This document shows positions 28,053 to 28,410 of a stretch of 64,000 nt of DNA, in pieces. The position numbers and the translations under genes were made by a program. Origin of the DNA: Escherichia coli (GTDB lineage: Bacteria; Pseudomonadota; Gammaproteobacteria; Enterobacterales; Enterobacteriaceae); the NCBI RefSeq assembly GCF_003334255.1, contig NZ_QOWU01000011.1. One strand, written 5' to 3'. The notes below the pieces were generated by a model. That model saw only the letters and a list, made by a program, of their open reading frames with translations, did not search any database and was not told where the DNA came from. Positions within the stretch are counted from its first letter, which is position 1; each line of letters starts with the position of its first letter.

Positions 28053-28219
28053 TGTTCTCTTCTTCAGGTTAAAAAATAAGGCGCAACGAAGATAACAAAC
28101 CGCCGCGTTTAATGAAATGAGCAGCCTCTCCCTGACGCAAATTTTGCACAAAAAATAGGCTTTAGTGATTTGTTTTTGTTCAAAATCATGCCAAATCCGT
28201 GATCGGGGTAAAAAAAAGG

Positions 28220-28247
28220 TTGCATGAAAACGCGAGCGGAGTATAGT
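28220..28247 (+). promoter_or_regulatory. sigma70 promoter for the tRNA-fMet gene (-35 ttgcat, 16 bp spacer, -10 tatagt) with upstream A-tract
   Basis: Hexamers read directly; -10 ends 13 nt before the mature tRNA 5' end. Confidence 0.55.
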
Positions 28248-28260
28248 GCGCATCCACGGA

Positions 28261-28337
28261 CGCGGGGTGGAGCAGCCTGGTAGCTCGTCGGGCTCATAAC
28301 CCGAAGGTCGTCGGTTCAAATCCGGCCCCCGCAACCA
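28261..28337 (+). tRNA. metZ: Initiator tRNA-fMet (anticodon CAU)
   Basis: CGCGGGGUGGAGCAGCCUGGUAGCUCGUCGGGCUCAUAACCCGAAGGUCGUCGGUUCAAAUCCGGCCCCCGCAACCA; C1 unpaired with A72, three G-C pairs in anticodon stem, encoded CCA; single copy here. Confidence 0.95.
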
Positions 28338-28345
28338 ATTATTGA

Positions 28346-28368
28346 ACACCCTAACGGGTGTTTTTTTG
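28346..28368 (+). terminator. Rho-independent terminator after tRNA-fMet
   Basis: acaccc-taa-cgggtgt hairpin followed by ttttttt; a second hairpin gcgccattcagcgcc plus T-run follows at 28390-28410. Confidence 0.6.
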
Positions 28369-28410
28369 TTTCTGGTCTCCCATAAAAAAGCGCCATTCAG
28401 CGCCTTTTTA

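What the first reader, a model, noticed from the sequence alone, without database searches (positions are those of the whole stretch)
28053..28410. Single initiator tRNA-fMet gene where the K-12 reference has a three-gene tandem array (metZ-metW-metV)
Between mltA and amiC I can read exactly one 77 nt tRNA-fMet (28261-28337) with its own promoter and terminator. From memory, E. coli K-12 carries three tandem identical copies here, and initiator tRNA dosage affects translation initiation and growth rate. One copy could be natural copy-number variation by recombination between repeats, a lineage trait, or assembly collapse of a tandem repeat.
Basis: partly seen in the sequence, partly recalled or inferred. 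Interest (0 to 1): 0.45.

Follow-up and report, generated by a model that had tools for sequence, protein, structure and literature searches.

The report
Initiator tRNA array shrunk to one
This E. coli sequence has one initiator-methionine tRNA gene where most strains have three in a row. That is an ordinary, already documented size change of a repeated gene array, and without the raw reads it cannot be told apart from an assembly error.

Summary
Exactly one tRNA-fMet gene (28261-28337, +) lies between mltA and amiC, with the K-12 upstream region and terminator. The window differs from K-12 by a clean loss of 220 bp, which is two 110-bp repeat units. Everything else in the interval is identical.

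It is not rare. Among 5,426 complete E. coli genomes the array has at most 1 copy in 232, 2 copies in 194, 3 copies in 4,933 and 4 or more in 67.

It is not a lineage norm. The closest flank haplotype found (Symbioflor G1/2: 2 SNPs and one 12-bp indel over 64 kb) has three copies.

Genuine contraction is documented: laboratory-evolved MG1655 derivatives lost one or two copies by homologous recombination (PMC10249474). Stable 2-, 4- and 5-copy clones recur across independent assemblies.

Assembly collapse is also demonstrated. Three assemblies of the 2011 O104:H4 outbreak clone show 3, 2 and 1 copies, and the 1-copy assembly also lacks two genes of a second tRNA array. One "complete" genome has an N in place of the array. 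Single-copy genomes also cluster by submission batch.

The two causes cannot be separated here without reads (about 50:45). Either way the finding is known and of low interest.

The parts
26955..28052 (-). mltA (murein transglycosylase A) coding sequence, upstream neighbour
   Evidence: Same coordinates as the annotated mltA in strain 5735, which is collinear with the window up to 28341. The 1,611 nt upstream of the tRNA are identical to K-12.
28210..28251 (+). Probable metZ-type promoter: A-tract 28210-28217, -35 TTGCAT 28220-28225, 16-nt spacer, -10 TATAGT 28242-28247, GC-rich discriminator GCGC 28248-28251
   Evidence: Read directly. Base-for-base identical to the K-12 region upstream of metZ. 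Not called by the consensus scan. Promoter function is inferred from K-12 knowledge (Nagase et al. 1988, as cited in PMC3017606).
28261..28337 (+). Single initiator tRNA gene (tRNAfMet1 type, genomically encoded CCA)
   Evidence: ARAGORN. Rfam RF00005, 61.4 bits. Identical to K-12 metZ, metW and metV. Initiator identity elements read directly.
28259..28341 (+). 83-nt block (2 + 77 + 4 nt) identical between the first and third copy of the three-gene array; the deletion junction must lie somewhere inside it
   Evidence: copy 1 against copy 3 extends 2 nt to the left and 4 nt to the right; alignment gap of exactly 220 columns.
28344..28373 (+). Intrinsic terminator of the tRNA transcription unit (8-bp stem, 4-nt loop, T-run)
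   Evidence: Terminator scan. Identical to the sequence after the last K-12 copy.
28411..29664 (-). amiC (N-acetylmuramoyl-L-alanine amidase) coding sequence, downstream neighbour
   Evidence: Transferred from annotated K-12 and 5735 after subtracting 220 bp. The 984 nt downstream of the tRNA are identical to K-12.

Best explanation
This is the ordinary metZWV initiator-tRNA operon of E. coli, contracted from three tandem genes to one. The three genes are identical 77-nt sequences spaced 110 bp apart. RecA-mediated unequal exchange, single-strand annealing or replication slippage between the first and third copy (an 83-nt identical block) removes exactly two repeat units, 220 bp. That leaves the native promoter, one intact tRNAfMet1 gene and the native terminator, which should still be a working transcription unit. 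I take the contraction to have happened in the strain itself, as a recent tip-of-the-tree event rather than an old lineage trait. Together with metY, which lies outside the window, the cell would then have about two initiator tRNA genes instead of four. The expected results are roughly halved tRNAfMet, a small growth cost in rich medium, a possible benefit in poor medium, and somewhat lower fidelity of initiator selection. Shown here: the anatomy, the exact 2 x 110 bp loss, its recurrence in other genomes, and the three-copy state of the nearest relatives. Inferred: the molecular route, the in-vivo origin, and all phenotypes.
For: The loss is exactly 220 bp with both flanks identical to K-12. 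The same event, loss of one or two copies 'by homologous recombination', was reported in 3 of 5 laboratory-evolved MG1655 derivatives (PMC10249474). Array size is truly heritable and variable: strain HS has 4 copies in three assemblies, and a 5-copy group comes from many submitters. A group of genomes that includes O6:H16 strains and is near-identical across the 25-kb query shows 2 copies from several submitters. In the census, at most 1 copy is seen in 232 genomes, 2 in 194, 3 in 4,933 and 4 or more in 67, out of 5,426; 109 are clean single-copy loci with K-12-type flanks. Four of the six single-copy assemblies I checked (J53, C3026, MG1655p, WP7-S17-ESBL-04) keep all four genes of a second tandem tRNA array, serV-argVYZQ, so those assemblers resolve such arrays. 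Apart from the array, the window has no indel against 5735 or WP7-S17-ESBL-04 over 64 kb, so nothing else suggests repeat trouble. [quoted passage not shown]
Against: Nothing in a finished sequence distinguishes an in-vivo deletion from a collapsed repeat. Collapse is demonstrated at this very locus in other 'complete' genomes. Single-copy genomes cluster by accession batch across different flank haplotypes. The window matches none of the 5,426 RefSeq complete genomes exactly, so it may come from a lower-grade assembly. The nearest relatives have three copies, so the event, if real, has no support from sister genomes.
Confidence: 0.5

Rival explanations
1. Assembly collapse. The organism has the usual three (or two) copies, and the assembler or polisher merged the identical 77-nt genes (81-94 nt identical blocks, 110-bp period) into one, giving a clean in-silico 220-bp deletion.
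For: Three assemblies of the 2011 O104:H4 outbreak clone disagree: C227-11 has 3 copies, HUSEC2011 has 2 and 2011C-3493 has 1. 2011C-3493 also has only 2 of the 4 tRNA-Arg genes that C227-11 has in the serV-arg array. MC1061 (CP195014) likewise shows 1 metZ copy and 2 arg copies, against 4 in other K-12 strains. ST648 (CP008697) has a literal 'N' where the array should be and no tRNA at all. The 60 of 109 single-copy genomes listed include runs from the same accession series but with different flank haplotypes: GF CP1721xx about 9, WP AP02xxxx 7, CP0672xx 4, CP0756xx 4. K-12 laboratory strains disagree among assemblies, with 1, 2 or 3 copies. The window is not identical to any RefSeq complete genome.
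Against: Four of the six single-copy assemblies tested resolve another tandem tRNA array correctly. Real contractions are published (PMC10249474). The arg array is an imperfect control, because G1/2 has 3 metZ copies but only 2 arg copies. The window shows no other indel against close relatives.
Confidence: 0.43
2. Lineage norm. The single copy is the inherited state of the clade this strain belongs to, so it is neither a recent event nor an error.
For: WP7-S17-ESBL-04 is a fairly close haplotype (9 SNPs over 64 kb) and also has one copy. Several phylogroup-A genomes that are about 100% identical over the central 25 kb have one copy.
Against: The closest haplotype found, G1/2 (with G6/7 and G8 annotated alike), differs by 2 SNPs and one 12-bp indel and has three copies. 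Strain 5735, perfect over the left 25 kb, has three. Single-copy genomes are scattered over flank haplotypes from 98% to 100% identity. 91% of genomes have three copies.
Confidence: 0.04
3. Selected dosage reduction. The contraction is real and was favoured because a lower initiator-tRNA dose helps under slow growth or nutrient limitation.
For: Three of five independently evolved lines lost copies (PMC10249474). Loss of copies is reported as advantageous in poor media (Samhita 2014, via PMC9981150). Contractions (426 genomes) outnumber expansions (67).
Against: The authors of the evolution study state that an effect on growth is unclear. Deletions are mechanistically easier than duplications, and collapse artefacts inflate the contraction count. 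The strong mode at three copies argues for stabilising selection. This is a sub-case of the best explanation.
Confidence: 0.12

Closest known systems
E. coli K-12 metZWV operon (three tandem tRNAfMet1 genes at 63.5 min, between mltA and amiC)
   Same: Same chromosomal position, identical upstream region, identical 77-nt tRNA and identical terminator.
   Different: One gene instead of three. Exactly two 110-bp units (tRNA plus 33-nt spacer) are missing.
metZWV contractions in laboratory-evolved genome-reduced MG1655 strains (delta-37c13, delta-37c145, delta-37c146; Front Microbiol 2023, PMC10249474)
   Same: The same locus and the same outcome: one or two of the three f-Met tRNA genes deleted, attributed to homologous recombination.
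   Different: Those were engineered K-12 derivatives under laboratory evolution. The window is a non-K-12 phylogroup-A-like haplotype (a few SNPs from K-12), and its contraction is not verified by reads.
Collapsed tandem tRNA arrays in public assemblies (for example O104:H4 2011C-3493 against C227-11; ST648 CP008697)
   Same: A single copy (or none) at the same locus, with clean flanks.
   Different: For those genomes a clone-mate assembly or an explicit N exposes the error. No such comparator exists for the window.
metY, the solitary initiator tRNA gene upstream of nusA-infB
   Same: A single initiator tRNA gene with its own promoter.
   Different: A different locus, outside the window. In K-12, metY encodes the A46 isoacceptor tRNAfMet2, whereas this gene has G46 (PMC3017606; bioRxiv 10.64898/2026.04.16.719103).

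Membership tests
Bacterial initiator tRNA (tRNAfMet) | CAU anticodon and tRNA cloverleaf | tested here: met
   ARAGORN tRNA-Met(cat). Rfam tRNA, 61.4 bits.
Bacterial initiator tRNA (tRNAfMet) | Unpaired 1:72 position (C1xA72), three consecutive G:C pairs 29-31:39-41 in the anticodon stem, and A11:U24 | tested here: met
   Read directly from 28261-28337. cmscan marks the first and last acceptor pair as non-standard. The sequence is identical to K-12 metZ/W/V.
tRNAfMet1 isoacceptor (metZWV type) | G at position 46 (A46 in K-12 metY, tRNAfMet2) | tested here: met
   The variable loop reads AGGTC, giving G46. The isoform difference is as described (bioRxiv 2026).
metZWV operon | Located between mltA and amiC, with the K-12 promoter region and terminator | tested here: met
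metZWV operon | Three tandem genes | tested here: not met
   One gene only. This is the finding itself.
Repeat-mediated contraction of a tandem array | Loss of an integral number of repeat units, with the junction inside an identical block and the flanks untouched | tested here: met
   220 bp = 2 x 110 bp. The identical block is 83 nt. There are 0 mismatches in 1,611 nt upstream and 984 nt downstream against K-12.
Repeat-mediated contraction of a tandem array | The event occurred in the organism rather than in the assembler | not testable with these tools
   No reads are available. Both causes are demonstrated in other genomes.
Assembly collapse artefact | Excess read depth over the repeat, or spanning reads longer than the assembly | not testable with these tools
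   Indirect evidence only: batch clustering, clone-mate discordance, and co-contraction of a second array in 2 of 6 single-copy assemblies.

The most novel reading that the evidence does not exclude
The single-copy state is real and is one of many independent, selectively favoured reductions of initiator-tRNA dosage in natural E. coli. Under this reading the metZWV array acts as a fast, reversible dosage dial of 1 to 6 copies that tunes translation-initiation capacity and fidelity to growth conditions.
Probability: 0.1. Interest if true: 0.35.

Novelty: already known. Interest (0 to 1): 0.1.

Why it matters
Initiator-tRNA dosage affects growth rate, cold sensitivity and the fidelity of start-site selection. 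A real drop from four to two genes would therefore be a modest physiological variant. The practical lessons are two. First, array size at this locus varies from 1 to at least 5 in public "complete" genomes. Second, a substantial share of the low counts are assembly artefacts. tRNA gene counts taken from assemblies, for example for tRNA adaptation indices or strain comparisons, should not be trusted at tandem arrays without read-level checks.

Tried and rejected
- **Promoter scan.** It called no promoter, because TTGCAT matches only 3 of 6 positions of the -35 consensus. I kept the promoter as a reading supported by identity to K-12.
- **"The window is K-12".** The central 25 kb is 100% identical to J53, MC1061, C3026 and MG1655p, which suggested K-12. 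I rejected this because the left and right thirds match other strains better, and K-12 is a few SNPs off.
- **Counting copy number from ">=80% coverage" figures.** The tool joins pieces in 2-copy genomes, which confounds the counts. I replaced this with probes whose E-value cut-off only a full-length single alignment can pass.
- **Lineage norm.** Rejected.
- **serV-argVYZQ array as a control for assembler quality.** It was informative for O104:H4 and MC1061. It is imperfect, because G1/2 has 3 metZ copies but only 2 arg copies.
- **First coordinate guess for C227-11.** It missed the locus, which I then found.
- **Samhita et al. 2014 (PMC4097586).** The paper is not held. I cite it only through PMC9981150.
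- **Script.** It failed on file layout and was fixed.
- **Unresolved class.** I did not resolve the 123 genomes that have neither an inter-copy spacer nor a K-12-type single-copy junction. ST648 shows that some are gaps and some carry a different downstream flank.

Full report
**What is there.** The window holds exactly one tRNA gene: tRNA-Met(CAT) at 28261-28337 on the + strand (ARAGORN; Rfam tRNA 61.4 bits, E = 2.8e-12). Read directly, it has the hallmarks of a bacterial initiator:
- a C1xA72 mismatch, which cmscan flags as a non-standard pair;
- three G:C pairs at 29-31:39-41;
- A11:U24;
- G46, the tRNAfMet1 type.

It is identical to each of the three K-12 copies. It sits in the intergenic region between mltA (26955-28052, -) and amiC (28411-29664, -), with coordinates transferred from annotated relatives. 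Downstream is a hairpin with a T-run at 28344-28373. Upstream I read TTGCAT, 16 nt, TATAGT, then a GCGC discriminator, preceded by an A-tract (28210-28251). The consensus scan did not call this, but it is base-for-base the K-12 metZ upstream region.

**Comparison with K-12.** K-12 strain JW5503 has three tRNA-Met genes here, spaced 110 bp apart: 77-nt genes and two slightly different 33-nt spacers. The alignment shows that the window lacks exactly 220 bp, two units. It is otherwise identical over 1,611 nt upstream and 984 nt downstream. The first and third copies share an 83-nt identical block (2 + 77 + 4 nt), so the junction lies somewhere in 28259-28341 and cannot be placed more finely. This is the signature of repeat-mediated loss: unequal recombination, single-strand annealing or slippage in a cell, or repeat collapse in an assembler.

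**How common it is.** I used probes with E-value cut-offs that only a full-length single alignment can pass, and took a census of 5,426 complete E. coli genomes.

| Probe | Genomes |
|---|---|
| At least one inter-copy spacer (>=2 copies) | 5,194 |
| >=3 copies | 5,000 |
| >=4 copies (26 of these >=5) | 67 |

The resulting distribution is:

| Array size | Genomes | Share |
|---|---|---|
| at most 1 copy | 232 | 4.3% |
| 2 copies | 194 | 3.6% |
| 3 copies | 4,933 | 90.9% |
| 4 or more copies | 67 | 1.2% |

With K-12-type flanks on both sides, 109 genomes have a clean single copy and 116 have two copies. Every genome gives at least two places for the 801-nt locus query. That is consistent with metY being retained everywhere. 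metY itself lies outside the window and could not be checked for this strain.

**Whether it is a lineage trait.** The central 25 kb is 100% identical to several single-copy K-12 laboratory assemblies (J53, C3026, MG1655p, MC1061). The window is nevertheless not K-12:
- The left third is perfect only to strain 5735.
- The right third is perfect only to the Symbioflor strains G1/2, G6/7 and G8.

Over the whole window the comparisons are:

| Genome | Difference from the window | metZWV copies |
|---|---|---|
| G1/2 | 2 SNPs, one 12-bp indel, plus the array | 3 |
| 5735 | 16 SNPs | 3 |
| WP7-S17-ESBL-04 | 9 SNPs plus an IS1203 insertion | 1 |

G6/7 and G8 are annotated like G1/2. The nearest relative found therefore has three copies. 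Single copy is not the norm of the neighbourhood.

**Evidence that real contractions and expansions occur.**
- In laboratory evolution of genome-reduced MG1655 derivatives, three of five strains lost one or two of the three f-Met tRNA genes "through homologous recombination" (PMC10249474).
- Strain HS carries four copies in three separate assemblies, and a five-copy group appears from many submitters.
- A group of genomes that includes O6:H16 strains and is near-identical across the 25-kb query has two copies in genomes from several submitters.
- Four of the six single-copy assemblies I examined (J53, C3026, MG1655p, WP7-S17-ESBL-04) keep all four genes of another tandem tRNA array, serV-argVYZQ. 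Those assemblies therefore resolve tandem tRNA arrays.

**Evidence that collapses occur at this locus.**
- Three assemblies of the 2011 O104:H4 outbreak clone give three copies (C227-11), two (HUSEC2011) and one (2011C-3493).
- 2011C-3493 also has only two of the four tRNA-Arg genes that its clone-mate C227-11 has.
- MC1061 (CP195014) shows the same double contraction.
- ST648 (CP008697) has an 'N' exactly where the array should start, and no tRNA between mltA and amiC.
- The listed single-copy genomes fall into accession-series batches that span different flank haplotypes. That pattern points to pipelines rather than descent.
- K-12 laboratory strains disagree among assemblies, with 1, 2 or 3 copies.
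- The arg-array control is not perfect. G1/2 has three metZ copies but two arg copies.

**Verdict on cause.** The finished sequence carries no mark that separates an in-vivo deletion from an in-silico one. The window does not match any RefSeq complete genome exactly, so its assembly grade is unknown. I put about 0.50 on a genuine, recent contraction in the strain, about 0.43 on assembly collapse and about 0.04 on an inherited lineage state. Read depth over 28261-28337, or a PCR product across mltA-amiC (about 300 bp against about 520 bp), would settle it.

**Consequences if real (inferred).** The promoter, the gene and the terminator are intact, so the unit should be expressed. With metY the cell would have about two instead of four initiator genes.
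- tRNAfMet levels follow gene number.
- Deleting all of metZWV slows growth, gives cold sensitivity and lets non-initiator tRNAs initiate (PMC3017606; PMC11480407).
- Partial loss is reported as costly in rich and beneficial in poor media (Samhita et al. 2014, as summarised in PMC9981150). I could not read the original paper.

**Novelty and interest.** The locus, the tRNA, the mechanism and the very event are all known. The census and the demonstration of assembly artefacts are useful housekeeping, not discovery. Novelty: already known. Interest: 0.1.

Noticed in passing
L006 (NZ_CP008697.1, strain ST648) about position 811; L006 889-6117: This 'complete' genome has a single N exactly where the tRNA-fMet array should begin, and no tRNA between mltA and amiC. 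A 5.5-kb block lies between the array site and amiC; it holds a phosphoglycerate dehydrogenase, a KpsF/GutQ isomerase, a MalY/PatB pseudogene, a PTS EIIC and a PRD-domain regulator. The block is absent from the window and from K-12. Genomes like this probably account for part of the 123 that have neither an inter-copy spacer nor a K-12-type single-copy junction.
   Followed up: partly
related genomes, e.g. NC_009800.1 2965596-2966002; NZ_CP060075.1 1054154-1054560: The array also expands. 67 genomes have 4 or more copies and 26 have 5 or more. Strain HS has 4 copies in three assemblies. Symbioflor G3/10 has 4 copies, while its product-mates G1/2, G6/7 and G8 have 3.
   Followed up: partly
serV-argVYZQ array in related genomes: L020 4506-4953 (MC1061), L024 38708-39153 (2011C-3493), L026 24606-25052 (G1/2): A second tandem tRNA array, normally four tRNA-Arg genes after tRNA-Ser, shows only two tRNA-Arg genes in MC1061, O104:H4 2011C-3493 and G1/2. 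J53, C3026, MG1655p, WP7-S17-ESBL-04 and C227-11 have four. It has the same kind of size variation or collapse as metZWV.
   Followed up: partly
window 24211-25416 (csdA): The window's csdA is 1,206 nt, as in K-12 and 5735. G1/2, G6/7 and G8 carry a 12-bp longer allele (1,218 nt). This is the only indel between the window and G1/2 apart from the tRNA array.
   Followed up: no
window 28384-28409: AAAAAAGCGCCATTCAGCGCCTTTTT: a short GC stem flanked by an A-run and a T-run, immediately after the amiC stop codon. It is probably the amiC terminator, possibly bidirectional. The terminator scan did not call it.
   Followed up: no
L012 12381-15034 (WP7-S17-ESBL-04), corresponding to window about 1208-1210: An IS1203 (IS3-family) element interrupts gudX in WP7-S17-ESBL-04. 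The window has the intact gene.
   Followed up: no
K-12 laboratory-strain assemblies: Copy number at metZWV differs among K-12 derivatives in RefSeq. J53, ME8067, MC1061, OV2, C3026 and MG1655p have 1 copy. MT102, DH5a (CP076470) and C600 (CP167195) have 2. JW5503, NEB 5-alpha and DH10B (CP110018) have 3. From memory, and untested here, MC1061 and C3026 share the MC1000 ancestry, which would fit a real inherited deletion. J53 with ME8067, and MC1061 with OV2, have adjacent or near-adjacent accession numbers, which suggests shared submissions and would also fit a pipeline effect.
   Followed up: partly
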